In this document: positions 454-24,447 of the stretch, one piece after another
Layout: each line of letters begins with the position of its first letter
How positions within the stretch are numbered: position 1 is the first letter of the stretch
From: an uncultured Acidobacteriota bacterium
GTDB taxonomy: Bacteria > Acidobacteriota > Terriglobia > Terriglobales > Acidobacteriaceae
DNA length: 40,000 nucleotides
Direction: 5' to 3'
Assembly: GCA_963715675.1 (NCBI GenBank)
Contig: OY970265.1
Coordinates: forward strand, 2,822,677 to 2,862,676
Translations under genes and position numbers: made by a program
The notes under the pieces: generated by a model
Told to the model about the DNA's origin: nothing
The model's database searches: none
What the model saw: only the letters and a program-made list of their open reading frames with translations

Positions 454-466
454 TGATAGCCTCGGG

Positions 467-2455: not shown

Positions 2456-3116
2456 TGTTTATTTTGCCCAAAACCTGAATCACTCTGTCCCTGAACTCTC
2501 TCCACTGAGCGCGAATGGCGCGGTGGTGAGGCAACAAGGGGAGAATGGCTAAGAGAATGAGAAGAACATAAAATGCAACGTGTGCCTGCCTAAGAGAGTG
2601 CCATTTGTCTTCCCGTTCCTTTGACGGATCTCTCGGTTCGCGAGCTTCCGGGTTTCGGTCGAAAAATCCTTTGCGATGGCCCGCCAAAACCAGCTCATGC
2701 GCAGTATATGGAACTGGAAACGCTCTGCAGACCTCCTGCCCTTTGCCTCGACTGATTTTCTTGAAAGCATCTTCAAGCCGTCCTGCTCGATTGCCAAACA
2801 GTCTGCTCCACCTCACCTGCTCATGCTCCAGAAGAAAAAAGAAGACCAGCATCAACACAAGCCCCAAACTGATGGTGCAAACAGTAGACAGTCCCTTGCC
2901 GCTGCCTGCTGCCGAAGCCGCAATCACGGCAGTTATTGACCACCCTTTGATGGTGAATCTAAACGCGCCAATTTTGTCTATTTTGTCTTGCAAAAGTTTG
3001 TACTCATCCCACAAACGCGACTTGAAGTCCTCCTCGTCGTATAGAACCTTCGTCGAATCGCGCACCTGCGCGGTCGCACTCTGATTTTGGTCGGGTTTAA
3101 CTGGCTCTATCATCAT
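2448..3116 (-). CDS. predicted 3-TM membrane protein (TM hairpin + distal TM)
   Basis: 222 aa. Hydrophobic segments are WSITAVIAASAAG, LSTVCTISLGLVLMLVFFFLL and VAFYVLLILLAILPLLP. An amphipathic helix lies N-terminal to the TM hairpin. This is the first gene of the overlapping three-gene set. Confidence 0.6.
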   Translation of the reverse strand: MMIEPVKPDQNQSATAQVRDSTKVLYDEEDFKSRLWDEYKLLQDKIDKIGAFRFTIKGWSITAVIAASAAGSGKGLSTVCTISLGLVLMLVFFFLLEHEQVRWSRLFGNRAGRLEDAFKKISRGKGQEVCRAFPVPYTAHELVLAGHRKGFFDRNPEAREPRDPSKEREDKWHSLRQAHVAFYVLLILLAILPLLPHHRAIRAQWREFRDRVIQVLGKINNG

Positions 3117-3190
3117 TAAGGAGTTGAGGGTACTAGAGCTATTCGTTTCATTCGAAGCCAGGCGTTCCTTGTGTCTTGTAAAACTCTCGG

Positions 3191-3835
3191 CTAGTGGTCT
3201 GAACCCTTCCAGCCGGGAGGGAACGTAACCTCATACCTATGCCGGTCATCAAAAAGAGAGAACCCATTCAGCCCAATCAAATCCTTCGTCAAGTACTCCG
3301 CCACAGCTTGCAGATACGTGCTTTGCTCTTCGTCTGTAGGATCATTTTTGAGAACATGTTTCAGATTTGCCTTCAACTTGATAGTGATTTGAGCGGTGTG
3401 TTTTGCGGGAATATAAACTGGGGTATCAAGGTCGGCGAATCTGTCAACGGGTCCGAGGGAGCCTAAATCACCCAGGATGAAGGCTAAATGAACGTCTTTA
3501 GAGCCGTCGATTCGATAATCTTCGTTCGTTGTATTTTCCAGGAAATACATGAACTCAATTGTGTTCTTATCGTGGCTGTTCCCGATTTTATTGTACGTTG
3601 CTTTTAGCTGATCCTTCCTCCATGGCTTGGGCGGTGAGGGGCGACCTTCGTACCACGTGAGAGTGAGCGCACCGATGACTACTGCAAGAATTGCGGCGAC
3701 ACCCACACCAAAACCCGCTGCCCTAAGGAAGATTCTTCTCCACGTAGGCATAATGTTAGCCACCACATAAACAGGTCTGTACGCCAGTGCCCATTGTAAC
3801 TCGCTAGGACGCTTATCTTCGTCAGCACATGACAT
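3191..3835 (-). CDS. single-pass membrane-anchored hypothetical protein
   Basis: The ORF has one TM segment (AAGFGVGVAAILAVVIGALTL) followed by a ~150-aa soluble domain. The ORF-track start (3859) lies inside the 36-bp repeat, so an internal ATG at 3835 or 3751 is more likely. Confidence 0.5.
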   Translation of the reverse strand: MSCADEDKRPSELQWALAYRPVYVVANIMPTWRRIFLRAAGFGVGVAAILAVVIGALTLTWYEGRPSPPKPWRKDQLKATYNKIGNSHDKNTIEFMYFLENTTNEDYRIDGSKDVHLAFILGDLGSLGPVDRFADLDTPVYIPAKHTAQITIKLKANLKHVLKNDPTDEEQSTYLQAVAEYLTKDLIGLNGFSLFDDRHRYEVTFPPGWKGSDH

Positions 3836-3842
3836 TCGCTCA

Positions 3843-3878
3843 GGGGGTGCATATTCCATCCCGTCGTATTCTCACCCC
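3843..3878. repeat. terminal-inverted-repeat copy in right-end orientation, proposed right end of a neighbouring element
   Basis: GGGGGTGCATATTCCATCCCGTCGTATTCTCACCCC is the exact reverse complement (36/36) of 3893-3928. It matches 14464-14498 with 2 mismatches. Confidence 0.75.
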
Positions 3879-3892
3879 GGCAAACCACCGGA
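3879..3892. repeat. 14-bp direct repeat GGCAAACCACCGGA (candidate target-site duplication, copy 1)
   Basis: Identical 14-mer at 14499-14512. In both places it directly abuts the outer end of a TIR. Confidence 0.7.
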
Positions 3893-3928
3893 GGGGTGAG
3901 AATACGACGGGATGGAATATGCACCCCC
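3893..3928. repeat. left terminal inverted repeat of the casposon-like element
   Basis: GGGGTGAGAATACGACGGGATGGAATATGCACCCCC. Its reverse complement matches 14464-14498 (CGTCG vs CATTG, plus one extra terminal G). Confidence 0.75.
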
Positions 3929-3974
3929 GGTACGGCGTTGGTGAACTGGGATCAAAGCAGGTGTGGTGAGACAA

Positions 3975-5690
3975 TTATCCTAAATGAAGCACCTCGACGC
4001 GGTCGGCACGACGTCGACCATCTGGGATGACCCTTCCTTCAAGCTTCACCTCTAGGCCTTCCTTCAGTTTGGACCACGCATTGGAAGGAATCACGCTTGT
4101 CTTATGAAAGAACCAGTCCTGGCCTTCACAATCTCTGATGAAGCCGTATGGCATTGATGGAGGAAGACTCTTGATTGTTCCATAGATCGGCGCGGCAGCC
4201 GCGCCAGGGAGAGCGTGAGGTTCGGCCCACCGCAAATCCAATCGCTTTGCTTGGGAAACAGGAAGAGAATCCTCTCCAAAACACTTTGCGAACATCTCAT
4301 AGCTCAGCATGCGGAACTGGGTACATGTCGCAACGTGCTCAGCATCCGAAAGTGCCTGCAACATCTCGATCGCATACGGCTCGTCTCTACAAGACATCGC
4401 GAACGCAAGCCCATCCTCAATTATATTTGTATATAAGGAACCCATCCTCGAATCAAAATCGTTCGCGCCAAATGCGGCTTCAAGGATATGGCGACCCCTC
4501 TCAAGGTGTTTTTTCAACAGTTCACCATCGTTCATTATCCTGTCCTGCTCCGCCCAGCGTCTGTAACACTCGGCAGCTTGATCCTGAGTTGTGATCCTCC
4601 ATTTCCGGGGTCTGGTGCATATGTTTATCAACATGCGCTCATATATTTCAGCAGCTTCTTTACACCGCCCGAGCCTGGTTAGCGCGAGAGCTCGGAGGGT
4701 CTCCAATGTCTCGTCGCCAGGATCTAAGGTCAACGTTTTATCCAGTTGGTTCAACGCTTGTTGTGAATCTTCCATGTCGTACAACATGAAACACGCTTTT
4801 TGATAGTGCGCGATTGCAGATTTCGAATCGTACTCTATTGCAGAATCTAATTGTTCGGCTGCCTTATATAGATCTCCTTTTTGGCTCTCAATCAGTGCAC
4901 CGACCCGGTATGCTTCTGAATAAACTGGCAGCAAAGCTTTTGCCTTGTCGACCCTGTCACTGGCATCTTCCAATTTGCCTGCTCGCAGCAAATCCAGTGC
5001 TTGTTTCAGGTAACTGGTACAAATGCGCTCATCTCGTGTATTCGCTCGGACTGCATATAAGTCATACTTGTATATTGCTTGCTGAACGGCAGACTTCTCC
5101 ACCATCTCCCGCAGTCGCTTGAGAGCAAGCTGTACTTTCTCGAAAAACTTTCGCTCGGGAGGAGCAAAGCGAGCTATGTATTCAGAAGCGACATCCGTCA
5201 GCGTAATCTGGCTTGTCGCATCGGTGCCTCTTAGGTCGGGCACCGTTCGTTTGAGCATACTGGAGTTGTGCAAAGTACTAAGTGTAGCTTCAAGTGCAAA
5301 CTGATCTGTCTTGCCAATCTGCTGGATGAGAAACATCAGCTCCGTAACGGTAAGTGCACGACGTGTTATAGCCAAGACATGGAGTATTTCCTTTTCTGCA
5401 TCGGTTAATCGCGAAAAAAGGTTTTCAAAACAATATCGGAGCGCTGTTTCAAACGCTTGACCACTCTTCGATATGGTTCGATCAGGATCTGCTCCGGATG
5501 CGACACTTTGCACAAACCACTTTATTAGAAGTGGGTTCTTGTGCAGCAATGTGCAATAGTTCTCCAAACGTGCTGGAGAAGCCGAGCTAAGCATCTCCAC
5601 GTTTAACGATTTTGCAAAGCGTCTAGGAGCTGTGAGACTTCCTGGGTCACATCGCGGACTTTCAATCGTGCTGCGATCAACATAGGCCAC
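3975..5690 (-). CDS. STAND-type protein lacking its NTPase domain: winged-helix + TPR array + C-terminal cold-shock domain
   Basis: The N-terminus has the GxP-like segment LHKNPLLIKWF followed by the WH-like LTDAEKEILHVLAITRRALTVTEL. The middle holds TPR-like repeats (YRVGALIESQKGDLYKAAEQLDSAIEYD...). The C-terminus YGFIRDCEGQDWFFHKTSV fits the cold-shock-domain pattern. There is no P-loop. The listed start is a GTG, and an internal ATG (MLSSASP) lies near 5595. Confidence 0.55.
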   Translation of the reverse strand: MAYVDRSTIESPRCDPGSLTAPRRFAKSLNVEMLSSASPARLENYCTLLHKNPLLIKWFVQSVASGADPDRTISKSGQAFETALRYCFENLFSRLTDAEKEILHVLAITRRALTVTELMFLIQQIGKTDQFALEATLSTLHNSSMLKRTVPDLRGTDATSQITLTDVASEYIARFAPPERKFFEKVQLALKRLREMVEKSAVQQAIYKYDLYAVRANTRDERICTSYLKQALDLLRAGKLEDASDRVDKAKALLPVYSEAYRVGALIESQKGDLYKAAEQLDSAIEYDSKSAIAHYQKACFMLYDMEDSQQALNQLDKTLTLDPGDETLETLRALALTRLGRCKEAAEIYERMLINICTRPRKWRITTQDQAAECYRRWAEQDRIMNDGELLKKHLERGRHILEAAFGANDFDSRMGSLYTNIIEDGLAFAMSCRDEPYAIEMLQALSDAEHVATCTQFRMLSYEMFAKCFGEDSLPVSQAKRLDLRWAEPHALPGAAAAPIYGTIKSLPPSMPYGFIRDCEGQDWFFHKTSVIPSNAWSKLKEGLEVKLEGRVIPDGRRRADRVEVLHLG

Positions 5691-6836
5691 AACTTCAGCA
5701 ATGTGTTGACGGTGGGGTATTGGCTAGTGAAATCGGTGTAGACCACTGGGATGGGTGTGTGCCGGATACGAATCTCGGCCCGGCCTCCATAGTATGCCTG
5801 CATACAAATGCCAAGCGTTTCGTCATCGAGTTTGGAATTTTTGTTCAGGTGGAACCACCCCCATATTGCCGAGAAACGCTTTTGCGATTGAAGCGGCAGA
5901 GTAAGCCCTCTCTGGCGGAAGATTGCCGAGCGGGTAGCGCCGAAACTCGATCAGCAGCGCGTTCAGCAAACCAACGGTTGCACAGACATCCTGGCGGCAA
6001 TAATCGATCTCGTCACGTGTCACCGTTCCGCTTGGGGTGTAACCCCCCTTTTTTCCAGGAACCTTAAACTCGTGGCACGCCGTATCAAGGCTGAGGCTGC
6101 GATTTCGGAGAGCCCAGACCAACGTCTTCAGGTCCAAGAACCTTCCCAAGCGGTACGGCTGATTCATGTCCCCGCTTGCCAACCGGATGAATGCGGCCTT
6201 CGAATCCTTGGGCCTGAGCTGAATGCGGGGGCGGAAACTGTTTGGCCGCCAGTTGCCATTTTTCTTATCGCGGTACCTGAAGACTATGAAGCTCCACCCT
6301 CGCCCGCCCGCTCCGCGCGCAACGCGATATTCGACAGCAATACGCGACAAATCAAAAGGAAGGTTGAAAGCAACGATGATCGCTTCCGCTTGGATGGCCG
6401 TGTACATCACTTTTTCAACGAACGCGGCACGGTTGTAAAGCTTCAGCTTGCGGTCTGGCTTCTTGGCACCCTGTCGATTGGCACTCGTGACATACGCGCG
6501 AAGGAGGTCGAGTTGACTGGCGTCTAGGTCATCGGCGTGAAACAGTCCCTCCTCCTGGCAATGGTAATAGCCGTGTGAATCTTTTTCACAGAACTGGTAA
6601 GCCCCAAAGTTTAGACTCAGCCGCGCATCGGTGGTGGTCTCCGTATCCACCACTAGCACGTGTTTCGCGAACGGTGACTTTCTTCTAGAACTGTGCCCCT
6701 TGTTCGCAGTGTCTTCCACAATTCGAGTGTGGCATCGCAAATAGAGTTCGTGATCCATCCATTTCTCCGTGATTGCTCCGAACCGAATCCCCTCGGGGTG
6801 CCGAGGGGACAATCGATTCGTAGCGACTCGTTGCAC
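5603..6836 (-). pseudogene. family-B DNA polymerase remnant (3'-5' exonuclease domain + motif A only; frameshifted and 3'-truncated)
   Basis: Exo I is VVDTETT, Exo II is VAFNLPFDLSRI and Exo III is DYCRQDV, all in ORF 5823..6836. The next frame (5603..5803, open from 5844) reads KLDDETLGICMQAYYGGRAEIRIRHTPIPVVYTDFTSQYPT, which matches motif A (DxxSLYPS). The two frames can only join within 5826-5844, which contains an A5 run. No KxxxNSxYG or YxDTDS motif occurs in any frame downstream. Confidence 0.7.
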
Positions 6837-6841
6837 ACCGC

Positions 6842-7189
6842 CTATTGCTGTTTGGGGTTGATAGCCAAGCTTGGGACGATCTCTCCAGTTTGCGGATTGC
6901 GAACCGAGATGACCTCCAGCTTGATCTTTTTGCCGATTACCCTCTTTTCATCCTCTCCAAACAGCCGGATCAGCGCTTTCATGTTGGTTTTATTCACCGC
7001 CCAGGCTGATTTGCCCTGGACAGGTTTCTTTAGGTCGACGATGGCGGGAGCACTGAATCCCTCAGGGGATTCGCGAATGTCCGCCACTACTATCGTGAGC
7101 GATTTGGTTCCGGCTGGAATGTCCGAACCGTTGAGCAGCGCTCCGGCTTGGCCGGTGCTGCGGCTATCTAGCATCGTTCTCAGACTCAT
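6842..7189 (-). CDS. hypothetical small protein (115 aa)
   Basis: The ORF is packed between the HNH gene (26-nt overlap) and the polymerase gene (5-nt gap), which suggests an operon. No family recognised. Confidence 0.5.
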   Translation of the reverse strand: MSLRTMLDSRSTGQAGALLNGSDIPAGTKSLTIVVADIRESPEGFSAPAIVDLKKPVQGKSAWAVNKTNMKALIRLFGEDEKRVIGKKIKLEVISVRNPQTGEIVPSLAINPKQQ

Positions 7190-7580
7190 TGTTTTGCTCC
7201 TTTTTATGGGGTGATTCCCCGAAACTCTTTGCCACTGAATTCAGCCGTTCACTTGCCCTTGTTGGTGACTTCAACGATTCCGCCCAACGCCACAGTGCCT
7301 CGGCCAGCATCCACAGAAAAACGGCGGTAGCTTTCAGTGCTCTTCTCACTCGCTCCTCGGAACTTGGTGCGCGTCGCATGTCCACATCCGCCCGCCGCAG
7401 GTTTTCGGTTGCTTGCGCGTGGCAAGCTGGGCAAAGAGGAGCAGTCAACTCCGCGTCGTGATTTCTTCCGGCGACGTGGTGTTGCTCGATCCCTGTCTTG
7501 CGCCCGCATTGAAGGCAGCGATTCTGCTCGGCTCTTCTGGCAACCCTACGGGCTGTCTGGATCGGAGTGTGATCAATCAT
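7164..7580 (-). CDS. HNH-type zinc-finger nuclease-like protein
   Basis: CLQCGRKTGIEQHHVAGRNHDAELTAPLCPACHA fits the CxxC...HH...N...CxxCH HNH layout. The start overlaps the upstream stop (ATGA at 7577-7580). Confidence 0.65.
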   Translation of the reverse strand: MIDHTPIQTARRVARRAEQNRCLQCGRKTGIEQHHVAGRNHDAELTAPLCPACHAQATENLRRADVDMRRAPSSEERVRRALKATAVFLWMLAEALWRWAESLKSPTRASERLNSVAKSFGESPHKKEQNNESENDAR

Positions 7581-8053
7581 GACGACGACTCCGGCAGGGC
7601 ATAGATTTGATCGAGTTGGAGCGCGCCCGCTTGGGCGAGCGAACTCAACTGTTCAGGATCGGTAATGAGGAAATGGCCCGCGATGGACTGTCCTGCAAAT
7701 TCTTCAAGCGCGTCGGTCTCGCCGGTTCGCAGGTACTTGCCGACAGCCGACATATAGCGGCCAAGCTGCGATGCTTCCGTTGATCCGTGGATTACAACCG
7801 GAGTGGCACCGCGCGAAGTGGGAACCAGCATGTCCCGGCGTCGCCGGTCAGCTTTGGTTGGCAGGGTGCGTCCTTGCTTTGCCAATCCCCTAAGTTCCGC
7901 ACCCAGATACTTTCGGACAGTGCGAGGATCGATGTGTTCTTCACGCGCAGCAGCGGTTAGGCTCACGTCTGTTCGGCGCATGCGTGCCAGCACATGCAGA
8001 GCCCGATTGTACGTCTCCGCCTTTTTCCCTCGCTTCCGATTGCCGTTTGACAT
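7577..8053 (-). CDS. HTH DNA-binding protein
   Basis: ATG at 8053 (MSNGNRKRGKK) is preceded by AGGAGA. The HTH-like segment is SLTAAAREEHIDPRTVRKYLG. This is the first gene of the minus-strand HTH-HNH-115aa-PolB operon. Confidence 0.55.
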   Translation of the reverse strand: MSNGNRKRGKKAETYNRALHVLARMRRTDVSLTAAAREEHIDPRTVRKYLGAELRGLAKQGRTLPTKADRRRRDMLVPTSRGATPVVIHGSTEASQLGRYMSAVGKYLRTGETDALEEFAGQSIAGHFLITDPEQLSSLAQAGALQLDQIYALPESSS

Positions 8054-8150
8054 GCAATTATTCTCCTGCACCCTGGTTGATGCTTGATTTAAGCACAAGA
8101 TATAAAACGGTTTAGATGGTACAGCTGAGCACAGTGTCTATTTATATGGC

Positions 8151-8197
8151 AATAGCTTAAAATAGCAGCATACATATGTGGCTATTAGTGGTATAAT
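8151..8197 (+). promoter_or_regulatory. candidate promoter/operator in the divergent AT-rich intergenic region
   Basis: TGGTATAAT at 8189-8197 is an extended -10. The hexamer AATAGC occurs at 8151-8156 and 8161-8166 (10 bp apart), and its inverse GCTATT occurs at 8181-8186. Confidence 0.3.
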
Positions 8198-9203
8198 TGA
8201 ATTGAATAATATGGCGGAAAATATTTCGTTCTTCGCTACTGAAAAACCAAAACTCGGGCGGGGTCGACGAACGGAAATCCAGGACGAGATCCTCTGGGGT
8301 GTTCGAGATTCGTTACTCGGGATTCTTGAAGCCACTTGGATGGACGTGGGTGACAAACTTCCGCAAATAAAAACGCCTGCTGATGTACTCGCCGCCTTGG
8401 GGATATGGGAGAGGGACAATTTTCACAATCGACAGTACGTGACACAGATTTTGCTAAGGCCATCCTCCAGCCCAGCGACAAGCAAGTCGTTGAACGATAA
8501 ACGCCGTCGATGTCGTGCTTTGAATGAGTCCGCTCAAAGTGCACATGAGTCTATGGAGAAATGTTACAGGTCCTTCGAACCCGCGCTACGAATCTCCACC
8601 ACGCAATATTCCGAGAGCGAGCGAGAGGTTATTGACGAGAAAATCAGGGAACGCGCCAGAGCGCTCGCGCACGCGGGGGCAGAGTACATCGCTATCAAAG
8701 CTCGACAAAAAGATATGGACCGGGAATTACAGGATTGCGAAGCTCACTTTGCACGCGCCGAATTCGTAAGATTTTGCAGGAATAATCGCTACCGGTTGAC
8801 TACTCTGCATACAGCAAACGCTCTCGCCGGGTTGCCGTATATGGGCTGGAGACGATCTATCCAGAGATGCAGGACTGAGAAACCTGCAAGTTCAAACGGT
8901 GGTACGATTCAGGTTTTTAACACCATAAAGCGCATTGTCCAGTCCTGTCCTAGAAAATCTGGTTTGATCAAGCACGCCGAAAAGTATCTGAGGAATCCGG
9001 TTCGTGTTGGCTCCAATTCGTACGGGGTCTCCGAACTGCAACAAAAGTGGTTCTACCTGCGATGGTCCATCAAAACTGTGTTGGAAACAGGCATGCGCAC
9101 GCGCGATTTGCCCTTCGCGATTGCAAGGGAGTATGACAAACGCAAGAATCACCCTTCTAACGTGGACTTACTTTTTGAAGGGGAAGAACGCATTGTGAGT
9201 TGA
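8178..9203 (+). CDS. hypothetical protein (about 330-341 aa) immediately upstream of the Cas1-like gene
   Basis: Long ORF. The listed start is a GTG at 8178, and ATG at 8211 (MAENISFF) is an alternative. It ends 45 nt before the likely Cas1 ATG. No recognisable domain. Confidence 0.55.
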   Translation: MAISGIIELNNMAENISFFATEKPKLGRGRRTEIQDEILWGVRDSLLGILEATWMDVGDKLPQIKTPADVLAALGIWERDNFHNRQYVTQILLRPSSSPATSKSLNDKRRRCRALNESAQSAHESMEKCYRSFEPALRISTTQYSESEREVIDEKIRERARALAHAGAEYIAIKARQKDMDRELQDCEAHFARAEFVRFCRNNRYRLTTLHTANALAGLPYMGWRRSIQRCRTEKPASSNGGTIQVFNTIKRIVQSCPRKSGLIKHAEKYLRNPVRVGSNSYGVSELQQKWFYLRWSIKTVLETGMRTRDLPFAIAREYDKRKNHPSNVDLLFEGEERIVS

Positions 9204-9247
9204 AGCCCTCTCCCGAGTTGCTCCAATTGTGGAATACGGAGGAATCA

Positions 9248-10813
9248 ATGAACACGAGCAAAGTGTCGATTTCAGATATCGATCCAGGGCGACAGGGAGT
9301 CGTTACTCTGTCTGGGTACGGGATTCATGTCGGAGTTGACCGGGGTCACCTGCTTTTGGAAGACGGAATCGCTGCCGATCGCCACCGGGCCAGATTCCCG
9401 CGAGTAGGACATGGGCTCAAACGTCTGGTGGTCATCGGCTCGGACGGGATGGTGTCCCTCGCAGCACTCCGCTGGCTCGCCGATCAAGATGTTGCTTTCG
9501 CAATGTTAGAACGCAATGGCAAGACACTGTGTGTCACCGGTCCAGTTGGATCGTCTACTGCAAAATTGAGACGCGCTCAAGGTCTAGCCATCAGTAATGG
9601 TGTGGGGCTTGAAATCTGCCACAAACTGATCGACGCCAAACTACAAGGCCAAGAAAAAGTTCTACGGGAACGTCTGAATTGCCAGCCGACGGCGGACGCA
9701 ATCGCTCGCTTTCGGAACAAGCTAGGTTCGGCAGAGAGTTTTGACGCGATCCGTAATCTCGAAGCGAACGCGGCCTCTGCGTATTTTCGTGAGTGGCGAG
9801 ATCTTCCGGTGACCTGGCCGAAGGGTGATCTGCAACGAATCCCAGCACACTGGCGATCTGCGGGGAGTAGGCAATCTCCTCTTAGTGGCGGACCTCGCCT
9901 CGCCGTGACGCCTGTTCATGCCATCCTAAATTACTGCTTTGCCTTGGTTGAAGCCGAAACTAGACTAGCCCTCTCTGCGTTAGGTCTCGATTCGGGCTTG
10001 GGGGTAGGTCTGCACGCGGACACTGCCGATCGTGACTCTCTCGCTCTCGATGTTCTCGAACCCGTACGCCCCCAGATTGAGACGTGGTTACTTGATTGGG
10101 TTGCGAGGGAACCATTGCGCAGGGCCGATTTCTTCGAAACTGCGACCGGCAATTGTCGCCTCATGTCCCAGATATGCACCAAGCTGGGCGGGACCGCTCC
10201 AGTCTGGGGAAAGCTGGTTGCGCCGTGGGCTGAATACGTGGCCCGAACTCTCTGGACTGGAGCAAAATCTGGACGCACTCACAATTCAGTTCTTCCGACA
10301 CGTCTCACCCAGCAGCGACGTACGGAAGCCAAGGGCAAGGTCTGGATAACCGCCATTGAACCGCCAAAGACGGATCATCTCTGTCGCGGGTGTGGAAAGA
10401 CCGTCCAAACTGAGAGTACGAACTGTGGCGAGTGTGCCATTGGCGGAGCGACGGAACGCCTGATCAGCGCTGCGAAACTTGGCCGCGTGGCTGCACGGAG
10501 CCCGGAAGCTCGTGCCAAACATGTGGCCTCGCGGCGGCGGCACGCAGAGGCATGCTCGGCCTGGGACGCATCGACGCAACCAGCTTGGCTTACCAGCGAA
10601 GTGTTCACGCAACAAATACAGCCGCTGCTCGAAAAAGTCACCACGTCCGCTATTTGCTCACGAATTGGTGTCTCGCGTTGGTACGCAGGCCGAATTCGGC
10701 AAGGCTATCTGCCGCATCCGAGGCATTGGCAGGCGCTGGCGGATTTGGCTGGGAAGACCAATCCCCTCTTCCCACACGCTCCGCTATGCAGTAGCCTTGA
10801 GAGTCCTCTGTAA
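9248..10813 (+). CDS. cas1: Cas1-family integrase (casposase-like) with C-terminal zinc ribbon and HTH; 3' end replaced by IS3 insertion
   Basis: ATG at 9248 follows GGAGGA. Cas1-like blocks are GYGIHVGVDRGHLLLEDG, LKRLVVIGSDGMVSLAALRWLADQDVAFAML, KLRRAQ, IDAKLQGQEKVL, NLEANAASAYF (Glu), PVHAILNYCFALVEAE and GLGVGLHAD..DRDSLALDVLEPVRPQIE (His, Asp/Glu). A zinc ribbon CRGCG...CGEC and an HTH ICSRIGVSRWYAGRIRQG follow. The stop codon TAA (10811-10813) lies inside the IS3 left inverted repeat. Confidence 0.75.
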   Translation: MNTSKVSISDIDPGRQGVVTLSGYGIHVGVDRGHLLLEDGIAADRHRARFPRVGHGLKRLVVIGSDGMVSLAALRWLADQDVAFAMLERNGKTLCVTGPVGSSTAKLRRAQGLAISNGVGLEICHKLIDAKLQGQEKVLRERLNCQPTADAIARFRNKLGSAESFDAIRNLEANAASAYFREWRDLPVTWPKGDLQRIPAHWRSAGSRQSPLSGGPRLAVTPVHAILNYCFALVEAETRLALSALGLDSGLGVGLHADTADRDSLALDVLEPVRPQIETWLLDWVAREPLRRADFFETATGNCRLMSQICTKLGGTAPVWGKLVAPWAEYVARTLWTGAKSGRTHNSVLPTRLTQQRRTEAKGKVWITAIEPPKTDHLCRGCGKTVQTESTNCGECAIGGATERLISAAKLGRVAARSPEARAKHVASRRRHAEACSAWDASTQPAWLTSEVFTQQIQPLLEKVTTSAICSRIGVSRWYAGRIRQGYLPHPRHWQALADLAGKTNPLFPHAPLCSSLESPL

Positions 10814-10876
10814 TGCACCCCTGTGAAACTGGACAGGATCATAAGGTATGATTCAGGGCCTCCGCCAGGAGGCGAG

Positions 10877-11167
10877 ATGCCAAGAAAAGCGCAAGTGCAG
10901 AGAAGTGCCGAAGAGAAGTTTGCCATCGTGATCGAGGGTCTGAAGAGCGGCAACATTGCTGAGACCTGTCGCACCCACCAGATCGCCGCCACGCTCTATT
11001 ACCGCTGGAAAGAGGAAGCCGAAAAAGCGGCGGTAGCCGCGTTGGGCGGGAAAGCCGCTGCGCCCCATGGCGGCGAGGAACAGCGCAAGCGCATCCGCGA
11101 ACTGGAGCGCAGCCTGGGCAAGGCCCACGTGCAGATCGACATACTAAAAAACGTTCTGGGCGAATGA
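10877..11167 (+). CDS. IS3-family transposase OrfA (HTH)
   Basis: ATG at 10877 follows AGGAGG. The protein MPRKAQVQRSAEEKFAIV...YYRWKEE has a leucine-zipper-like tail. It is typical of IS3 OrfA. Confidence 0.85.
   Translation: MPRKAQVQRSAEEKFAIVIEGLKSGNIAETCRTHQIAATLYYRWKEEAEKAAVAALGGKAAAPHGGEEQRKRIRELERSLGKAHVQIDILKNVLGE
11146..11152 (+). other. programmed -1 ribosomal frameshift heptamer A AAA AAC
   Basis: In the orfA frame the sequence reads CT[A AAA AAC] GTT. The -1 frame continues K K R S G R M S C G Q, which is the orfB frame. Confidence 0.6.
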
Positions 11168-12048
11168 GCTGTGGCCAGGTTCATTCGCAAGCCCACCAGT
11201 TGGTGGCCGCAGGACAAACCGCCCAACTGGTGGCGGAGACCTTGGAGATCAGCCGCTCCAGTCTGTATTATCGCCGGCAGGCACGCAGGTCGCGCGCCGA
11301 TCGCCGCTACGACGAACGCATCGTCGAGGTCTGCGGCGAAAAGCCAGTGTATGGCTATCGCCGGGTGCAATGGTGGCTGGAACAGGTGAGTGGGTTGAAG
11401 CTGAACCGCAAGCGGGTATTGCGCGTGATGCGCGAACGCGGCCTGCTGGTACGCAGCCGCCGTCTCCGGGTGACGCGCAGAAAAGACTGGAGCACGGTGA
11501 ACGTCTCGCGACCGGACCAGGTGTGGCAGATGGACATGACCAAGGTGTGGGCCGGTCCTGCGACCGGCTGGGCGTATCTGGTCTCGGCGCTGGACTGCTG
11601 CACCCGCGAAATCGTGGGCTGGGACTTGAGCCTGCGCTGCCGCACCCAGGACGCTCTGGCCGCGCTCCACCGCGCCCTGCGAGAGGTTTTGCCTTGCGAT
11701 CCTAGTAGAAAGGGTTTGACTTTGACGACCGACAACGGCACCCAGTTCACCAGTGCCCGCTTCATCGCTACCCTGGGGCAGCTCGGCATCACTCATCGCC
11801 GAACCGCCTACAACCATCCCGAAGGCAACGGACGTATCGAGCGTTTCCACCGCTCGCTCAAGGAAGAGGAGGTTTGGCTCAACGAATACCAGTCGCTCGA
11901 TCAGGCCCGCGATTCCATCGCCCGCTGGATCCACCAGTACAATCATCAGCGGCCTCATCAGTCACTCAAGAACCGAACGCCCGCCGCGACCCGGCTGGTG
12001 CTCACTCAACCGCAACCCCTAACTTATATCGAGGCCCTTTGTGTCTAG
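11164..12048 (+). CDS. IS3-family transposase OrfB (DDE/rve integrase core)
   Basis: The DDE residues fall in WQMDMTKV (D), LTTDNGTQFTS (D) and PEGNGRIERFHRSLKEE (E). The ATGA overlap with orfA is present. Confidence 0.9.
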   Translation: MSCGQVHSQAHQLVAAGQTAQLVAETLEISRSSLYYRRQARRSRADRRYDERIVEVCGEKPVYGYRRVQWWLEQVSGLKLNRKRVLRVMRERGLLVRSRRLRVTRRKDWSTVNVSRPDQVWQMDMTKVWAGPATGWAYLVSALDCCTREIVGWDLSLRCRTQDALAALHRALREVLPCDPSRKGLTLTTDNGTQFTSARFIATLGQLGITHRRTAYNHPEGNGRIERFHRSLKEEEVWLNEYQSLDQARDSIARWIHQYNHQRPHQSLKNRTPAATRLVLTQPQPLTYIEALCV

Positions 12049-12067
12049 TTTAGGAGGGTGCATTACA

Positions 12068-12647
12068 GATCGTAATCATCGATTTGTCTCAGGGAAACCC
12101 AGAAATTCAAACGCTATATTCAGAGCGCATATGTCGGCATATCTTCACGGATGCGATGGCGCGGTTCATTACGAACAAGCCGAACAACTTCGTGCAATTC
12201 TACTTTGAAGAGGCCCACAATCTGTTCCCCAAAAAGGAAGACAAGGACCTCAGCCAAATTTACAATCGGCTCGCAAAAGAAGGAGCCAAGCTAAATCTCG
12301 GGTTGATATACGCAACCCAAGAGGTCTCCTCAATTAGTTCAAATATCCTGAAGAACACGCAAAACTGGTTCATCGCTCATTTGAACAATGAGGATGAAAC
12401 GAAAGAAATAAAAAAGTGGCCAATCACCCCAGTTCTAGAATTCTTCAGAAGTTTGCCAAGCAAACGGTCGTGGGTACCCCCTGATGATCTCCACAAGAGA
12501 ACGACCGGTGCAACTTTCGTATTCTACAGAGAGCGGTCGGATGTATTGTGGGTTGGCAGAGCGTTTTCTGTCGTCCGAAATTGCAAGCAGGTATCGCGGG
12601 AAGGTTCAACTTCTCTTCACCTCGCCCCCGTTTCCGCTAAATCGTAA
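12068..12647 (+). pseudogene. HerA/FtsK-superfamily (DUF87-like) ATPase, C-terminal fragment truncated by the IS3
   Basis: The reading frame is open from the first base after the IS (QIVIIDLSQGNPE...). It has the Walker-B-like FYFEEAHNLFP, then LAKEGAKLNLGLIYATQEVSSISSNILKNTQNWFIAHLNNEDE. No Walker A is present. The 3' tail overlaps the methyltransferase ORF and may be out of frame. Confidence 0.6.
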
Positions 12648-13425
12648 AAAGAAGTATGGAAATCTGACCGGTCCCGAGTATCAGGAATGGCTTGCCGCCT
12701 TTGGGCCGTCTTTTCGCAAGATGCTAGCTCCTGGTGGTTCCATTGTCTTGGAGCTCGGCAACGCATGGGAACCAGGCAGACCGATAATGTCGACGCTGGC
12801 TCTTGAGGCCTTGCTGGCGTTTAGAGCGAAAGGGAATCTCCGACTGGTCCAACAATTCGTGGCCCACAATCCAGCCCGCCTCCCCAGCCCAGCTCAATGG
12901 GTTAACGTGGAGCGCATACGAGTGAAGGATTCCTTTACGCATCTGTGGTGGCTTGCGCCGTCCGACAGACCCTACGCTGATAATCGGTCTGTGCTCCAAG
13001 CGTATAGCGACTCCATGAAAGAGCTCCTTAGGTCCCGCCACTACAATTCAGGTAAGCGCCCGTCAGGGCACAAGGTTGGCAAAGAATCTTTTCTCCGAGA
13101 CAACGGCGGTTCAATTCCATCAAATGTTCTTAATTTCTCCAACACTTCGTCGGCAGATGTCTATCAGGAGTATTGTCGTCGGAAAGAGCTAAAACCCCAC
13201 CCTGCAAGAATGCAAATCGGTGTGGCAGAGTTTTTCATCAAATTCCTTACTCGAAGGGGCGACGTTGTTTTCGATCCCTTCGCGGGCAGCAACACCACAG
13301 GGGCGGCTGCTGAGGCGTTGGGACGGAAGTGGATTTCAGTGGAAGCGAATCTCGATTACATCAAGAGCTCGCGGGGACGGTTTAGTGGATGCGAGAGCCG
13401 CGTTCAGCCGGGAAAACACACATGA
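12484..13425 (+). CDS. beta-class DNA methyltransferase (motif IV TSPPF; probable N4-cytosine or N6-adenine)
   Basis: Motif IV is LLFTSPPF near the N-terminus and motif I is VVFDPFAGSNTTGAAAEALGRKWISVE near the C-terminus, the beta-group IV-TRD-I order. SPPF/SPPY is typical of m4C enzymes such as M.PvuII. The start could be the internal ATG near 12541 (MYCGLAERF). Confidence 0.8.
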   Translation: MISTRERPVQLSYSTESGRMYCGLAERFLSSEIASRYRGKVQLLFTSPPFPLNRKKKYGNLTGPEYQEWLAAFGPSFRKMLAPGGSIVLELGNAWEPGRPIMSTLALEALLAFRAKGNLRLVQQFVAHNPARLPSPAQWVNVERIRVKDSFTHLWWLAPSDRPYADNRSVLQAYSDSMKELLRSRHYNSGKRPSGHKVGKESFLRDNGGSIPSNVLNFSNTSSADVYQEYCRRKELKPHPARMQIGVAEFFIKFLTRRGDVVFDPFAGSNTTGAAAEALGRKWISVEANLDYIKSSRGRFSGCESRVQPGKHT

Positions 13426-13470
13426 ATCAGATGGGGTTGCGCCAGCTGTGCCTAGGGTAGACCGGGAGCT

Positions 13471-13818
13471 ATGATTGCTCGCATTTACATTGCCGGACCG
13501 TACACAAACGGGGACGTTGCCGTCAACGTTCGAAATGCGTACGAAGCAGCAAACCGGCTTGCAGACTTAGGCTTCGCACCATTCGTGCCGCACGCGACTC
13601 ATTTCTGGCACATGCTTTTTCCCCGTCCATACAAGTTTTGGCTCGAATTAGATAATCAGTTTCTACCATGCTGTGCGGCGGTTCTTCGTCTGCCCGGACC
13701 TTCGAAAGGTGCCGACGCGGAAGTCCAACTTGCGAAGAATCTTGGAATTCCGGTTTTCGAGGACATCGACAAATTAGTTGAGTTTTTCCGAAGCACCACA
13801 GCTAAGGAAAGGACCTGA
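13471..13818 (+). CDS. DUF4406 / nucleoside 2-deoxyribosyltransferase-like small protein
   Basis: 115 aa. The N-terminal IYIAGPYTNGD...N...A and a later SKGADAEVQLA segment fit the DUF4406-like pattern. This is a memory-based assignment. Confidence 0.5.
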   Translation: MIARIYIAGPYTNGDVAVNVRNAYEAANRLADLGFAPFVPHATHFWHMLFPRPYKFWLELDNQFLPCCAAVLRLPGPSKGADAEVQLAKNLGIPVFEDIDKLVEFFRSTTAKERT

Positions 13819-13821
13819 CGT

Positions 13822-14442
13822 ATGAGCATCGAGCCGGACAAGGCGATCGAGCGATCTGTCGACCATGTTCAGAGAATCTATGCTGTAATTATCGCTCTCG
13901 CGATTTCCCAGGCGATTCAGAGCCTTTTGAAGAACCCTAATGACACGATCGGGGAGCTGAATCTCGCGCATATACCTGCTGGACTGCCAGCCTTTATAGC
14001 TTTCTTAGTAACTCTCGTACCCTTCTGGCAAGGGATGAATCGCCACCTTGATCGTTGTTATCTAGAGAAGAAAACAGTCGTTGTGCAGCGCGCTCTCCTG
14101 CTCGACTTCGCGGTTTTCTTTGTGGAGGCCATCTTCCTCTTCGGGGCAGGATGGTCGATCAAATCGGATATCAACACATTTTACTGGCTTGGTGGGTTGC
14201 TTTGCGTTGACATGATTTGGGCCATAGTCTCTCATTACATCCATTTTCCGGGAACAAAATCGCACGCGCTGAAATGGTCCGCTATTAACGTGTGCGCAAT
14301 AGTCATTGCCATCTTGGTGGTCGAGTTTCCCTTTCAGCACAAGCAATTCGTCCTGACGGTAATAGCAGTCGGGAGGACAATAGCGGACTACGTGTTTTCA
14401 GGAGGCTTTTATTTTCCCAGCCCCCCAGTCGTAAGCCGCTAG
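13822..14442 (+). CDS. polytopic membrane protein, unknown function
   Basis: 206 aa with about 5-6 hydrophobic helices (IYAVIIALAISQAI, LPAFIAFLVTLVPFW, LLLDFAVFFVEAIFLFGAGW, WLGGLLCVDMIWAIV, AINVCAIVIAILVV...). It starts 4 nt after the preceding stop. Confidence 0.55.
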   Translation: MSIEPDKAIERSVDHVQRIYAVIIALAISQAIQSLLKNPNDTIGELNLAHIPAGLPAFIAFLVTLVPFWQGMNRHLDRCYLEKKTVVVQRALLLDFAVFFVEAIFLFGAGWSIKSDINTFYWLGGLLCVDMIWAIVSHYIHFPGTKSHALKWSAINVCAIVIAILVVEFPFQHKQFVLTVIAVGRTIADYVFSGGFYFPSPPVVSR

Positions 14443-14463
14443 TCTTGGCGGTGCGGTTGTTCA

Positions 14464-14498
14464 GGGGTGCATATTCCATCCCATTGTATTCTCACCCC
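14464..14498. repeat. right terminal inverted repeat of the casposon-like element
   Basis: GGGGTGCATATTCCATCCCATTGTATTCTCACCCC, compared with 3843-3878 and 3893-3928. Confidence 0.75.
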
Positions 14499-14512
14499 GG
14501 CAAACCACCGGA
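14499..14512. repeat. 14-bp direct repeat GGCAAACCACCGGA (candidate target-site duplication, copy 2)
   Basis: Identical to 3879-3892. The next two bases (GG) also match, so the duplication could be read as 14-16 bp. Confidence 0.7.
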
Positions 14513-15465: not shown

Positions 15466-15496
15466 TACCGCCTTCCTACCGACGGGTGCGGGTGCC

Positions 15497-24427: not shown

Positions 24428-24447
24428 AAGAAGTTCAGTTCCCAGTC

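What the first reader, a model, noticed from the sequence alone, without database searches (positions are those of the whole stretch)
3843..14512. Casposon-like element in a bacterial chromosome: 35/36-bp TIRs and a 14-bp duplication around a Cas1 / PolB / HNH / HTH core
Seen in sequence: 3893-3928 (GGGGTGAGAATACGACGGGATGGAATATGCACCCCC) is the reverse complement of 14464-14498, with 2 mismatches and one extra terminal G. Each copy is abutted on its outer side by the same 14-mer GGCAAACCACCGGA (3879-3892 and 14499-14512). Between them lie four core genes. The first is a Cas1-family ORF (9248-10813) with the N-terminal beta-domain blocks and the candidate catalytic Glu (LEANAASAYF), His (VGLHAD) and Asp (LALDVLEP). 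The second is a family-B polymerase remnant with Exo I-III and motif A. The other two are an HNH protein and an HTH protein. No cas2 and no CRISPR array are present anywhere in the window. Established knowledge: Cas1 (casposase) + PolB + HNH/HTH bounded by TIRs and a 14-15-bp target-site duplication defines casposons (Krupovic et al. 2014; Hickman and Dyda 2015). These are mostly archaeal, with few bacterial representatives. Inference: this is a casposon, or a close Cas1-solo relative, in an Acidobacteriota-like genome. The duplication length is what points to Cas1-type integration rather than a tyrosine recombinase or DDE event.
Basis: partly seen in the sequence, partly recalled or inferred. 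Interest (0 to 1): 0.88.

Follow-up and report, generated by a model that had tools for sequence, protein, structure and literature searches.

The report
Decayed bacterial casposon in a tandem pair
This is a genuine but partly broken Cas1-driven transposon (casposon) in a soil acidobacterium; it sits end to end with a second copy, and its relatives elsewhere insert at the -35 box of host gene promoters and pile up there, much as a CRISPR array grows.

Summary
The inverted repeats at 3893-3928 and 14464-14498 and the 14-bp duplication GGCAAACCACCGGA (3879-3892, 14499-14512) are real and far beyond chance.

Window 1-3878 is therefore the end of a second, inverted casposon (e1). It abuts the reported element (e2) across the shared 14-mer.

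e2 has an intact-looking casposase with a C-terminal zinc ribbon and HTH. It is otherwise decayed:
- its family-B polymerase is cut off after motif A;
- an IS3 element abuts the casposase stop codon;
- a HerA fragment follows.

The HNH call rests on a motif only.

The same repeat occurs at 1-2 copies per contig in six Acidobacteriota MAG contigs and in 44 metagenome stretches. The casposase family has hundreds of relatives, so this is a large bacterial casposon lineage.

Across 45 unique repeat ends, the 14-mer always carries GTCAA (reverse complement TTGAC). Where the neighbour is host DNA, it reads TTGAC-N18/19-TAnnnT ahead of varied genes (nuoB, cysS, rplU, a class I tRNA synthetase). Older casposons usually lie on the other side.

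This suggests promoter-targeted integration with arrays that grow at the promoter-proximal end. The window itself cannot show it.

The parts
1..453 (+). e1 (neighbouring casposon): 3' end of its PolB gene, running in from off-window, with a C-terminal HTH (GLSRHTILRARRG)
   Evidence: The translation is 75% identical to the C-terminus of the related PolB in J. Contig L055 is 100% identical to window 1-3872 and extends the ORF to 592 aa, with motifs B and C (CDTDS) and KxY.
467..3859 (-). e1 cargo genes: DUF4145 protein 467-1096, nucleotidyltransferase 1263-1946, and ORFs 1943-2455, 2448-3116 and 3191-3859
   Evidence: Pfam. PADLOC hits are weak only.
3843..3878 (-).
   Evidence: (I1)
3879..3892 (+). 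14-bp target-site copy GGCAAACCACCGGA, shared by e1 and e2
3893..3928 (+). Left terminal inverted repeat of e2
   Evidence: The same repeat is present in 7 MAG loci (6 contigs) and 44 metagenome loci.
3975..5690 (-). Cargo: a TPR protein with a C-terminal cold-shock domain. It occupies the place of the deleted polymerase domain.
   Evidence: Pfam and NCBIfam. Homology to J stops at 5622.
5603..5803 (-). PolB polymerase-part remnant, 66 aa with motif A DFTSQYP, truncated
5823..6836 (-). PolB 3'-5' exonuclease ORF (Exo I-III). It is separated from the polymerase part by one extra base.
   Evidence: The fold of the fused relative P0124 matches family B polymerases.
6842..7189 (-). Conserved small ORF (115 aa), function unknown
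   Evidence: Lies within the stretch that is 82% nt identical to J. No family hit.
7164..7580 (-). Zinc-finger protein with an HNH-like motif (C22, C25, H34/H35, C50 and H54 conserved)
   Evidence: Alignments. Profile and fold searches were negative.
7577..8098 (-). Putative HTH protein (173 aa)
   Evidence: Weak hit to the IS21-type N-terminal HTH, E=0.0023. Conserved in J.
8178..9203 (+). Conserved 341-aa protein upstream of cas1, function unknown
   Evidence: 49% identical to its counterpart in J. No family hit.
9248..10813 (+). Casposase: a Cas1 domain plus a C-terminal CxxC..CxxC zinc ribbon and an HTH
10811..12063 (+). IS3-family insertion sequence (HTH_Tnp_1 and rve ORFs). Its end supplies the cas1 stop codon.
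   Evidence: A 98.5% identical copy sits elsewhere in L054.
12084..12647 (+). C-terminal fragment of a HerA-like ATPase (truncated cargo)
   Evidence: PADLOC HerA models, E=4.6e-12, matching only profile positions ~450-525 of 585
12484..13425 (+). Cargo: N6/N4 DNA methyltransferase
13471..14442 (+). Cargo: DUF4406/DUF7768-like protein (13471-13818) and a predicted membrane protein (13822-14442)
14464..14498 (-). Right terminal inverted repeat of e2 (2 mismatches)
14499..14512 (+). Second copy of the 14-bp target site (target-site duplication)

Best explanation
Window 3893-14498 (e2) is a bacterial casposon, closest in features to the published Family 3. It is flanked by a 14-bp target-site duplication.

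Mechanism. This follows established casposase biochemistry (PMC6977970) and is inferred for this element. A tetramer of the Cas1-family casposase binds the GGGGTGAG... repeat ends. It joins their 3'-OH groups to the two strands of the target, 14 bp apart. Gap repair then duplicates the 14-mer. The element's family-B polymerase would copy the element.

State of e2. It is no longer autonomous. The polymerase domain is deleted after motif A, an IS3 element has inserted at the cas1 stop, and a HerA cargo gene is a stump. The casposase itself looks intact.

The neighbour. e2 abuts a second, inverted casposon (e1, window 1-3878 and beyond) across one shared copy of the 14-mer. The site was therefore used twice. 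e1 has an open polymerase gene and could supply functions in trans.

Target, inferred from relatives. In this lineage the 14-mer ends in the TTGAC of a sigma-70-type -35 box. Integration leaves the promoter intact next to one copy of the 14-mer, so that copy stays targetable. New elements then stack at the promoter-proximal side, in front of older ones. On this model e1 is the newer insertion and e2 the older one, and a third 14-mer copy, a -10 box and a leftward host gene should lie to the left of e1, outside the window.
For: Repeats and duplication.

Casposase. Pfam E=1.6e-31. Catalytic E/H/D/E and the zinc ribbon and HTH are invariant in 18 relatives. The best solved relative is the M. mazei casposase 6OPM, at 108.5 bits with the family profile against 95.9 for a CRISPR Cas1. 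The protein falls below the cut-off of every NCBIfam Cas1 model, subtype-specific or generic.

Polymerase. The Exo I-III residues are near-invariant. Fused relatives reach PF03175 at about the cut-off. The AF2 model of P0124 has family B polymerases as its top Foldseek hits, E~1e-6.

Decay of e2.

e1 is a second casposon.

Same design elsewhere. J (L005:2082 to L006:7203, 13.1 kb) has the same repeat, its own perfect 14-bp duplication CTCCTGGCATTGAC, and 82% nt identity to e2 over 5622-8017.

Not a REP. The repeat occurs 1-2 times per contig in 6 Acidobacteriota MAG contigs.

Target. All 45 unique repeat ends carry GTCAA/TTGAC-like 14-mers. 13 ends pass strict -35/-10 criteria anchored in the 14-mer, against 0.03 expected. 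An independent scan calls the L026 site a promoter. The downstream genes are nuoB, cysS, rplU, a class I aaRS, a kinase and others. The class counts are asymmetric: 18 promoter-side host flanks against 4 distal host flanks, and 12 distal TIR neighbours against 7 proximal.

Known parallels. 14-bp duplication by a casposase tetramer (PMC6977970). Tandem casposons sharing a duplication (PMC4779613).
Against: - No empty site was found, and e1's far end is outside the window. The third 14-mer copy and the promoter are therefore predicted, not seen.
- The window's 14-mer has TTGCC rather than TTGAC.
- No phylogeny against reference casposases could be built, so the family assignment rests on architecture and repeat/duplication dimensions.
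- HNH is unconfirmed.
- The promoter association could reflect survival of harmless insertions rather than active targeting.
- Some promoter flanks are probably the same host locus in related organisms. About 9 appear to be independent sites.
- Metagenome contigs may break preferentially at these palindromes, which would bias the class counts.
Confidence: 0.9

Rival explanations
1. The promoter association is produced by selection, not targeting. On this view the casposase recognises only a short GTCAA-type motif. Insertions survive mainly where they leave genes and promoters intact.
For: Only the TTGAC pentamer is strictly conserved inside the 14-mer. No protein-DNA contact data exist for this family. 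Many of the flanking genes are essential, so disruptive insertions there would be purged.
Against: The -10 hexamer sits at a fixed 17-18 nt spacing in 13-16 of 21 non-TIR flanks, against a background of 0.0007 per end. A bare pentamer would mostly fall inside dispensable genes or at non-promoter sites. The M. mazei casposase needs sequence upstream of the duplication, and its HTH is essential (PMC6977970).
Confidence: 0.25
2. e1 is not a full second casposon. It would be a truncated remnant or a duplicated end, such as a solo repeat with adjacent cargo.
For: Only 3.9 kb (window) plus 1.3 kb (L055) of e1 is visible. Its casposase and far repeat are not seen. Solo TIRs are known in M. mazei (PMC4779613).
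Against: e1 carries an uninterrupted 592-aa polymerase ORF with motifs B, C and KxY. A second casposase, P0092 (69% identical), lies on a contig of the same length as the one holding the exact casposase P0001 (5,249,395 bp). Back-to-back complete neighbours occur elsewhere, for example a Cas1 gene in the neighbour of L002.
Confidence: 0.12
3. The unit is a genomic island integrated by a tyrosine or serine recombinase. The 51-nt direct repeats (3844-3894 and 14464-14514) would be attL and attR.
For: A 96% identical 51-nt direct repeat does flank the region (D1). The relative J carries a large serine recombinase.
Against: No recombinase gene other than the IS3 transposase lies in e2. The direct repeat decomposes exactly into repeat plus 14-mer. 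J has the same repeat-plus-14-mer design with a different 14-mer. The repeat is found next to about 30 different 14-mers, which is not att-site behaviour.
Confidence: 0.02
4. The cas1 gene is a relic of a CRISPR-Cas adaptation module, or a non-mobile Cas1-solo, that happens to lie between unrelated repeats.
For: Public annotation names the homologues 'CRISPR-associated endonuclease Cas1'. The generic TIGR00287 model scores 70.2 against a cut-off of 71.7.
Against: There is no CRISPR array. No cas2 was found among the neighbouring ORFs scanned. All subtype models score far below their cut-offs. cas1 is linked to PolB, the small conserved ORFs and the same repeat in independent loci.
Confidence: 0.02

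Closest known systems
Family 3 (bacterial) casposons: NitAL212-C1 of Nitrosomonas sp. AL212 and AceAut-C1 of Ca. Acetothermum (Krupovic et al. 2014, PMC4046053)
   Same: - Bacterial host.
- Cas1, PolB and small HNH/HTH-type genes between TIRs.
- NitAL212-C1 has a 36-bp TIR starting GGGGT, a 14-bp duplication and an intergenic site.
- The AceAut-C1 Cas1 has the zinc-binding domain and HTH fused at its C-terminus, as here.
   Different: - Different phylum (Acidobacteriota).
- The TIR sequence is unrelated beyond GGGGT.
- The polymerase is very divergent and matches the PF03175 model only at about its cut-off.
- The polymerase is split between its exonuclease and polymerase parts in this sub-lineage.
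- The target is a promoter -35 box.
- Clade membership was not tested by phylogeny.
Methanosarcina casposons (Krupovic et al. 2016, PMC4779613; Hickman et al. 2020, PMC6977970)
   Same: - A 14-bp duplication with only a few conserved bases at one end (CGCA there, GTCAA here).
- Tandem elements separated only by a shared duplication, with one copy often carrying a broken polymerase.
- Both orientations are seen.
- 6OPM is the best solved relative of this casposase.
   Different: - Archaeal.
- Targets are the tRNA-Leu 3' end or intergenic regions.
- Tandem insertion is the exception there. Here 20 of 45 unique ends abut another casposon repeat.
Aciduliprofundum boonei casposon integration (Beguin et al. 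2016 and 2019; PMC5137440, PMC6614799)
   Same: Site preference needs the duplicated segment plus a 'leader-like' stretch upstream of it (abstracts). This is analogous to the spacer and -10 region next to the 14-mer here.
   Different: The target there is the 3' end of a gene (recalled from memory), not a promoter. It was tested biochemically, whereas the case here is only comparative.
CRISPR spacer acquisition at the leader-proximal repeat
   Same: A Cas1-family integrase. The duplicated segment acts as the repeat. New inserts are added next to a promoter-containing leader, and older inserts are pushed away.
   Different: - The inserts are 10-13 kb transposons, not ~30-bp spacers.
- There is no Cas2.
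- The promoter reads away from the array, into a host gene.
- The duplication is 14 bp, against 25-50 bp.
Tn7 at attTn7
   Same: Repeated use of one safe site next to an essential gene builds arrays in which some copies decay. The comparison was drawn by Krupovic et al. 2014.
   Different: Tn7 uses a DDE-type transposase with the TnsD targeting protein, makes a 5-bp duplication, and has a single site downstream of glmS.
Split family B polymerase of Methanothermobacter (recalled from memory, Kelman et al. 1999; not checked here)
   Same: The polymerase is encoded as two ORFs.
   Different: It is a cellular replicative enzyme, and its split point was not compared with this one. Here the split is a one-base offset that is absent in close relatives.

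Membership tests
Casposon (superfamily) | Cas1-family integrase with an intact catalytic Glu/His/Asp | tested here: met
   PF01867 at E=1.6e-31. E172, H256, D268 and E271 align to 6OPM and are invariant in 18 relatives.
Casposon (superfamily) | cas1 not linked to cas2 or a CRISPR array | tested here: met
   No CRISPR-like array in 40 kb. No Cas2 hit among the ORFs scanned in and around the element. An exhaustive six-frame scan was not done.
Casposon (superfamily) | Family B DNA polymerase gene | tested here: met
   Present as a remnant: Exo I-III plus motif A. Fused relatives hit PF03175 at about the cut-off. Their model matches family B polymerases. The polymerase domain of e2 is deleted.
Casposon (superfamily) | Terminal inverted repeats | tested here: met
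   35/36 nt, 94% complementary, with 0 matches in 100 shuffles. Conserved in 51 other loci.
Casposon (superfamily) | Target-site duplication (typically 14-15 bp) | tested here: met
   A perfect 14-bp duplication in e2 and in J. The spacing between back-to-back repeats is 14-15 bp in about 20 loci.
Casposon (superfamily) | Mobility: the same element type at different sites, with empty sites | tested here: inconclusive
   The same repeat lies next to about 30 different 14-mers and at least 8 different host genes. No empty site was recovered.
Family 3 casposons (Krupovic 2014) | Cas1 falls in the Family 3 clade of the Cas1 tree | not testable with these tools
   No usable reference casposase sequences were available. 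The supplementary alignment is held only as faulty machine-read text.
Family 3 casposons (Krupovic 2014) | Bacterial host, with optional zinc-binding and HTH domains fused to Cas1 | tested here: met
   The repeat occurs only in Acidobacteriota MAGs. C379, C382, C393, C396 and the VSRWYAGRIR helix region are conserved. The architecture is as described for AceAut-C1.
Family 2/3 casposon core | HNH endonuclease gene | tested here: inconclusive
   The CxxC..HH..N..CxxC-H motif is conserved. Pfam, NCBIfam, a PDB profile search and AF2 with Foldseek gave no significant HNH match. The L008 homologue has a weak DUF968 hit at E=0.0049.
Family 2/3 casposon core | Conserved HTH protein(s) | tested here: inconclusive
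   The 173-aa ORF has only a weak IS21-type HTH hit, E=0.0023. The 341-aa ORF is conserved but has no family hit.
CRISPR-Cas adaptation module | Cas1 reaches a subtype model cut-off, with cas2 and an array adjacent | tested here: not met
   All eight NCBIfam Cas1 models score below their cut-offs. The best subtype model scores 88 against 560, and the generic model 70.2 against 71.7. There is no array.
REP / high-copy genomic repeat | Many dispersed copies per genome, unrelated to the gene set | tested here: not met
   3 copies in the window, all at element ends. 1-2 per contig in 6 MAG contigs.

The most novel reading that the evidence does not exclude
This acidobacterial casposon lineage is actively targeted to sigma-70-type promoters. 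The casposase, or an accessory HTH protein, would read the -35 TTGAC and the -10 box about 18 nt away. Integration duplicates the 14 bp that end in the -35 box and leaves the promoter-adjacent copy fully targetable. Casposons would then accumulate in polar arrays of the form promoter, 14-mer, newest element, 14-mer, older element, 14-mer. That would be a natural transposon-scale counterpart of leader-proximal CRISPR array growth. It would supply a living model for the step from casposon to CRISPR.
Probability: 0.5. Interest if true: 0.85.

Novelty: new variant of a known kind. Interest (0 to 1): 0.72.

Why it matters
Casposons are the proposed ancestors of the CRISPR adaptation machinery. In the papers consulted, bacterial casposons are represented by four Family 3 elements (PMC4046053). 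No description of acidobacterial casposons turned up in the searchable library.

This window leads to a large, apparently active bacterial lineage in soil Acidobacteriota:
- 565 clusters at 50% identity share the casposase's C-terminal domain at E<=1e-10.
- 51 further loci carry the same repeat.

If targeting to the -35 box and promoter-proximal stacking hold up, they show how a Cas1 integrase can repeatedly use a promoter-adjacent, self-regenerating site. That property is what a proto-CRISPR array would need. It is directly testable with oligonucleotide integration assays.

There is also a practical consequence. Cas1 counts in soil metagenomes may include many casposases that are annotated as CRISPR Cas1.

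Tried and rejected
- Fetching the source genome. Exact-protein look-ups for the casposase (P0001) and for the second casposase P0092 found nothing. The cluster look-up timed out. The source genome is not among the genome contigs representatives. A look-up of e1 cargo proteins gave only 5-7 kb contigs, extending 1.3 kb left of the window. e1's far end was therefore not reached.
- Cas1 phylogeny against reference casposases. This was abandoned. The only reference alignment available is machine-read text with duplicated and corrupted rows.
- tRNA or structured-RNA target. None in the window or in nine loci.
- PolB by sequence. Pfam and PDB sequence searches on the 643-aa and 991-aa polymerases of relatives were negative. 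Only the fused N-terminal halves and the fold search gave support.
- HNH. Four approaches gave nothing significant.
- Other repeat types in the window. None found, so there is no third casposon to the right of e2.
- Second repeat ends in the metagenome loci, to get more both-end duplications. None found beyond back-to-back pairs.
- Programmed frameshift at the exo/pol junction. No known slippery motif fits the sequence CAA-A-CTC-GAT-GA, so the question is left open.
- A hybrid inward promoter formed by TTGAC plus the repeat. No acceptable -10 box at 16-18 nt spacing (by inspection).
- L009 as a 'Cas1-solo'. Rejected: its neighbour ORF is a PolB C-terminal fragment.

Full report
OBSERVATION

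3893-3927/8 and 14464-14498 are 35 nt and 94% complementary. A 35-mer search finds no match in 100 dinucleotide-preserving shuffles. The 14-mer GGCAAACCACCGGA abuts the outer side of each arm, at 3879-3892 and 14499-14512, and has no other exact copy in the window.

It is the perfect reverse complement of 3893-3928 and is separated from it only by the 14-mer (I1). The local layout is therefore:
- TIR (facing left)
- 14-mer
- TIR ... e2 ... TIR
- 14-mer

GENE CONTENT OF e2 (3893-14498)

Casposase. ORF 9248-10813 is a Cas1-family protein (PF01867, E=1.6e-31).
- Its closest solved relative is the Methanosarcina mazei casposase 6OPM (E=3.9e-18 with the single sequence). With a family profile, 6OPM scores 108.5 bits against 95.9 for the best CRISPR Cas1.
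- It falls below the curated cut-off of every NCBIfam Cas1 model, subtype-specific or generic.
- In an alignment of 18 relatives, the catalytic E172, H256, D268 and E271 are invariant. So are a C-terminal CxxC...CxxC zinc ribbon and a helix-turn-helix region.
- That architecture, Cas1 followed by a zinc-binding domain and an HTH, is what Krupovic et al. described for the Family 3 element AceAut-C1.

Polymerase. On the minus strand lie an exonuclease ORF (5823-6836) and, 19 nt after its stop, a 66-aa ORF (5603-5803).
- The exonuclease ORF carries Exo I DTE, Exo II NLPFD and Exo III YCRQD.
- The 66-aa ORF carries motif A, DFTSQYP.
- The exonuclease residues are near-invariant in 51 homologues.
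- Relatives in which the two parts are fused reach the PF03175 family-B model at about its cut-off.
- An AlphaFold model of one fused relative (P0124, pLDDT 74) has family B polymerases as its best Foldseek matches: poxvirus, pol alpha and herpesvirus enzymes, E about 1e-6 and probability 1.0, though TM-scores are low.

The polymerase call is therefore supported, and the word 'remnant' is right. Homology to the intact relative stops at 5622. The rest of the polymerase is replaced by a TPR/cold-shock-domain gene at 3975-5690.

HNH and HTH. The 'HNH' protein (7164-7580) has a conserved CxxC..HH..N..CxxC-H pattern. Pfam, NCBIfam, a PDB profile search and a fold search all failed to confirm it. 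The 'HTH' protein (7577-8098) has only a weak IS21-type HTH hit.

Other features of e2:
- An IS3-family element (10811-12063) abuts cas1 and supplies its stop codon.
- It is followed by a C-terminal stump of a HerA-like ATPase, then a DNA methyltransferase and two small cargo genes.
- No CRISPR-like array occurs in the window.

e2 thus has an intact-looking integrase but cannot replicate itself.

THE NEIGHBOUR e1

Window 1-453 encodes the C-terminal 150 residues of a PolB, 75% identical to that of a related element. It includes a C-terminal HTH motif (GLSRHTILRARRG...HPRS) resembling the one at the casposase C-terminus.

A public contig, L055, is 100% identical to window 1-3872. It starts inside the repeat and extends 1.3 kb further left. 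In it the polymerase ORF stays open for 592 aa, with motif B (KILANAGCYG), motif C (CDTDS) and KRYS.

Region 467-3859 carries cargo genes: a DUF4145 protein, a nucleotidyltransferase and others. So 1-3878 is the end of a second casposon, inverted relative to e2 and sharing the 14-mer with it.

A second casposase, P0092 (69% identical), lies on a contig of the same length as the one holding the exact casposase P0001, 5,249,395 bp. It may belong to e1.

Tandem casposons separated only by a shared duplication, with one copy carrying a broken polymerase, are known from Methanosarcina (PMC4779613).

RELATIVES

Genome scan. A scan of one genome per species for the repeat found seven stretches on six contigs, all from uncultured Acidobacteriota MAGs, at one or two per contig. 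This excludes a REP-type repeat.

The relative J. Two adjacent stretches (L005+L006) give a complete 13.1-kb relative, J.
- It has the same repeat and its own perfect 14-bp duplication, CTCCTGGCATTGAC.
- Its gene order is PolB, three small ORFs, a 362-aa ORF, then casposase.
- It is 82% nt identical to e2 over 5622-8017, yet its casposase is only about 50% identical.

Mosaicism. The e2 casposase is itself a mosaic. Its first ~90 and last ~120 residues are 77-95% identical to P0092. Its catalytic core is only 42-68% identical to P0092, but 72-85% identical to the L008 type. Modules are evidently exchanged between co-resident elements.

Size of the family.
- The casposase has 120 listed relatives at 62% identity or more, named where named as Terriglobales or Ca. 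Sulfotelmatobacter 'CRISPR-associated Cas1'.
- Its C-terminal domain alone finds 565 clusters at 50% identity with E<=1e-10.

THE TARGET SITE

The metagenome scan for the repeat added 44 loci. Together with the window and the MAGs, this gives 54 repeat ends and 45 unique flanks.

The 14 nt next to the repeat always carry GTCAA (rarely GGCAA, CTCAA or GTGAC) at one end, which reads TTGAC on the other strand.

In 21 flanks the DNA beyond the 14-mer is not another repeat and the GTCAA end points away from the element. There the opposite strand reads:
- repeat
- N9-TTGAC
- 18-19 nt
- TA(G/A)(A/G)(A/C)T
- a host start codon 59-237 nt from the repeat

Statistical support:
- Under the strict criteria of the promoter scanner, 13 ends have such a site anchored in the 14-mer. 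The background rate in the same loci predicts 0.03.
- The scanner independently calls the L026 site TTGACC-18-TAGAAT, 10 of 12 matches.

The downstream genes differ from locus to locus: nuoB, cysS, rplU, a class I aminoacyl-tRNA synthetase, a Ser/Thr kinase, a LolA-like lipoprotein, a TPR protein and a BNR protein. Some flanks are probably the same locus in related organisms. I count about nine independent sites.

The spacer sequences are not conserved, so the promoter belongs to the host and not to the element.

The duplicated 14-mer therefore ends in the first five bases of a sigma-70-type -35 hexamer. After insertion, the copy next to the -10 box still forms a complete promoter.

ARRAYS

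20 of the 45 unique ends abut the repeat of another casposon across 14-15 bp. That neighbour often has a different repeat type. In L002 the neighbour carries its own cas1 and PolB.

The classes are asymmetric:

| Side of the element | Host DNA beyond the 14-mer | Another repeat beyond the 14-mer |
|---|---|---|
| Promoter side | 18 | 7 |
| Far side | 4 | 12 |

(Four further ends had ambiguous orientation.)

This is what one expects if each new element enters the promoter-adjacent copy of the 14-mer and pushes older elements away. On that reading e1 is the newer insertion and e2, the decayed one, is the older. The promoter would then lie left of e1, outside the window.

The window's 14-mer reads TTGCC on the relevant strand. 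L045 shows the same GGCAAAC variant in a flank with a -10-like box, where L049 has GTCAAAC.

MECHANISM: WHAT IS SHOWN AND WHAT IS INFERRED

Shown here:
- the anatomy of e2 and e1;
- conservation of catalytic residues;
- the 14-bp duplication in two complete elements;
- the target motif and its promoter context in relatives.

Taken from the literature (PMC6977970):
- a casposase tetramer clamps a 14-bp target and joins two transposon 3' ends 14 bp apart;
- its HTH is essential, and was proposed to read sequence just upstream of the site.

Inferred:
- this casposase works the same way;
- its HTH, or the conserved 173-aa and 341-aa proteins, read the promoter;
- e2 could be mobilised only in trans.

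The main rival for the target finding is selection for harmless insertions rather than active targeting. I give that about 0.25.

COMPARISON AND NOVELTY

The element is a casposon by every structural criterion tested. It is nearest in features to Family 3. NitAL212-C1 has a 36-bp repeat starting GGGGT and a 14-bp duplication. AceAut-C1 has the same casposase domain order. Clade membership could not be tested because no usable reference sequences were available.

Not found in the literature searched:
- casposons in Acidobacteriota;
- the size of this bacterial lineage;
- the -35-box target;
- the frequency and polarity of the arrays.

Already known: the element type, the 14-bp duplication, tandem insertion as such, and decay of one copy.

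I therefore rate it a new variant of a known kind. Interest is moderately high, mainly for what the family offers to the question of how CRISPR arrays arose.

SIDE OBSERVATION ON THE POLYMERASE

In e2, J and at least two more distant relatives (P0122, P0128), the exonuclease ORF ends ...KF(Q/R)(T/A)R-stop. The polymerase ORF starts 19 nt later, in the +1 frame. Other relatives read straight through this point: P0124 and the 991-aa protein of L008.

One extra base (CAA-A-CTC-GAT-GA) accounts for the difference. About 24 of 120 homologues end within a few residues of this junction, with various tails. Both halves stay open in J (335 and 643 aa).

This looks more like a functional two-ORF polymerase, or some form of recoding, than simple decay. 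I found no known slippery motif, and the matter is open.

Noticed in passing
window 5803-5825 (minus strand); L005 7727-7749: The PolB gene is split between its exonuclease and polymerase parts by one extra base at a fixed junction (CAA-A-CTC-GAT-GA). The same break occurs in J, P0122 and P0128, while P0124 and L008 are fused. About 24 of 120 homologues end at this junction. Both halves remain open, which suggests a functional split enzyme or recoding.
   Followed up: partly
window 10811-12063; L054 1-1252: An IS3-family element supplies the stop codon of cas1. A 98.5% identical copy sits at a different position in an e1-like element from another sample, so the IS is active in this population. 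It lacks a clean 3-bp duplication in e2 and is followed by a HerA stump, which suggests an adjacent deletion.
   Followed up: partly
window 9248-10813 compared with P0092 and L008:10001-11539: The e2 casposase is a chimera. Its N-terminal ~90 aa and its C-terminal zinc ribbon and HTH are 77-95% identical to P0092, a second casposase apparently from the same genome. Its catalytic core is closer to a different lineage (72-85% to L008). The PolB-side module of e2 is 82% nt identical to J, while J's casposase is only about 50% identical.
   Followed up: partly
L009 8868-11539: A casposon remnant, consisting of the C-terminal 312 aa of PolB plus a full-length casposase. It sits between a beta-lactamase gene and blaR/blaI-like genes, with no recognisable repeats of the window's type.
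   Followed up: partly
L005 2454-5781 (element J): J carries a large serine recombinase and two ParB/RepB-like genes as cargo, between its repeat and its PolB. This is unusual for casposons, which were described as lacking other recombinases.
   Followed up: no
L008 15590-15955: Two casposon ends of another repeat type lie back to back across the 14-mer CCGCCTCGTTTGAC. Their inverted-repeat similarity extends over about 170 nt. These repeats are much longer than the 36-nt repeat of the window, although the casposase is 75% identical.
   Followed up: partly
window 14513-26237: The flank to the right of e2 is rich in insertion sequences: a Mutator/IS256-type transposase (16688-18028) and IS481-like genes (18569-19186 and 25323-26237). 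Ordinary host genes follow from about 20.8 kb (a response regulator, BamD/YfiO and rpe). In MAG locus L004, a casposon end lies about 0.8 kb from the homologue of window position 20835.
   Followed up: partly
window 30517-30557 and 30592-30621: Two short tandem arrays of an 8-mer (ATTGAATC x5 and TTCAATGA x3.8) lie in mutually inverted orientation about 35 bp apart. They may form a protein-binding site.
   Followed up: no
window 467-3116: e1 cargo includes a DUF4145 protein, a nucleotidyltransferase (MNT-like) and small ORFs with weak hits to candidate defence families (PD-T7-4, PDC-S09, PDC-M50A). These may be defence or toxin-antitoxin cargo.
   Followed up: no
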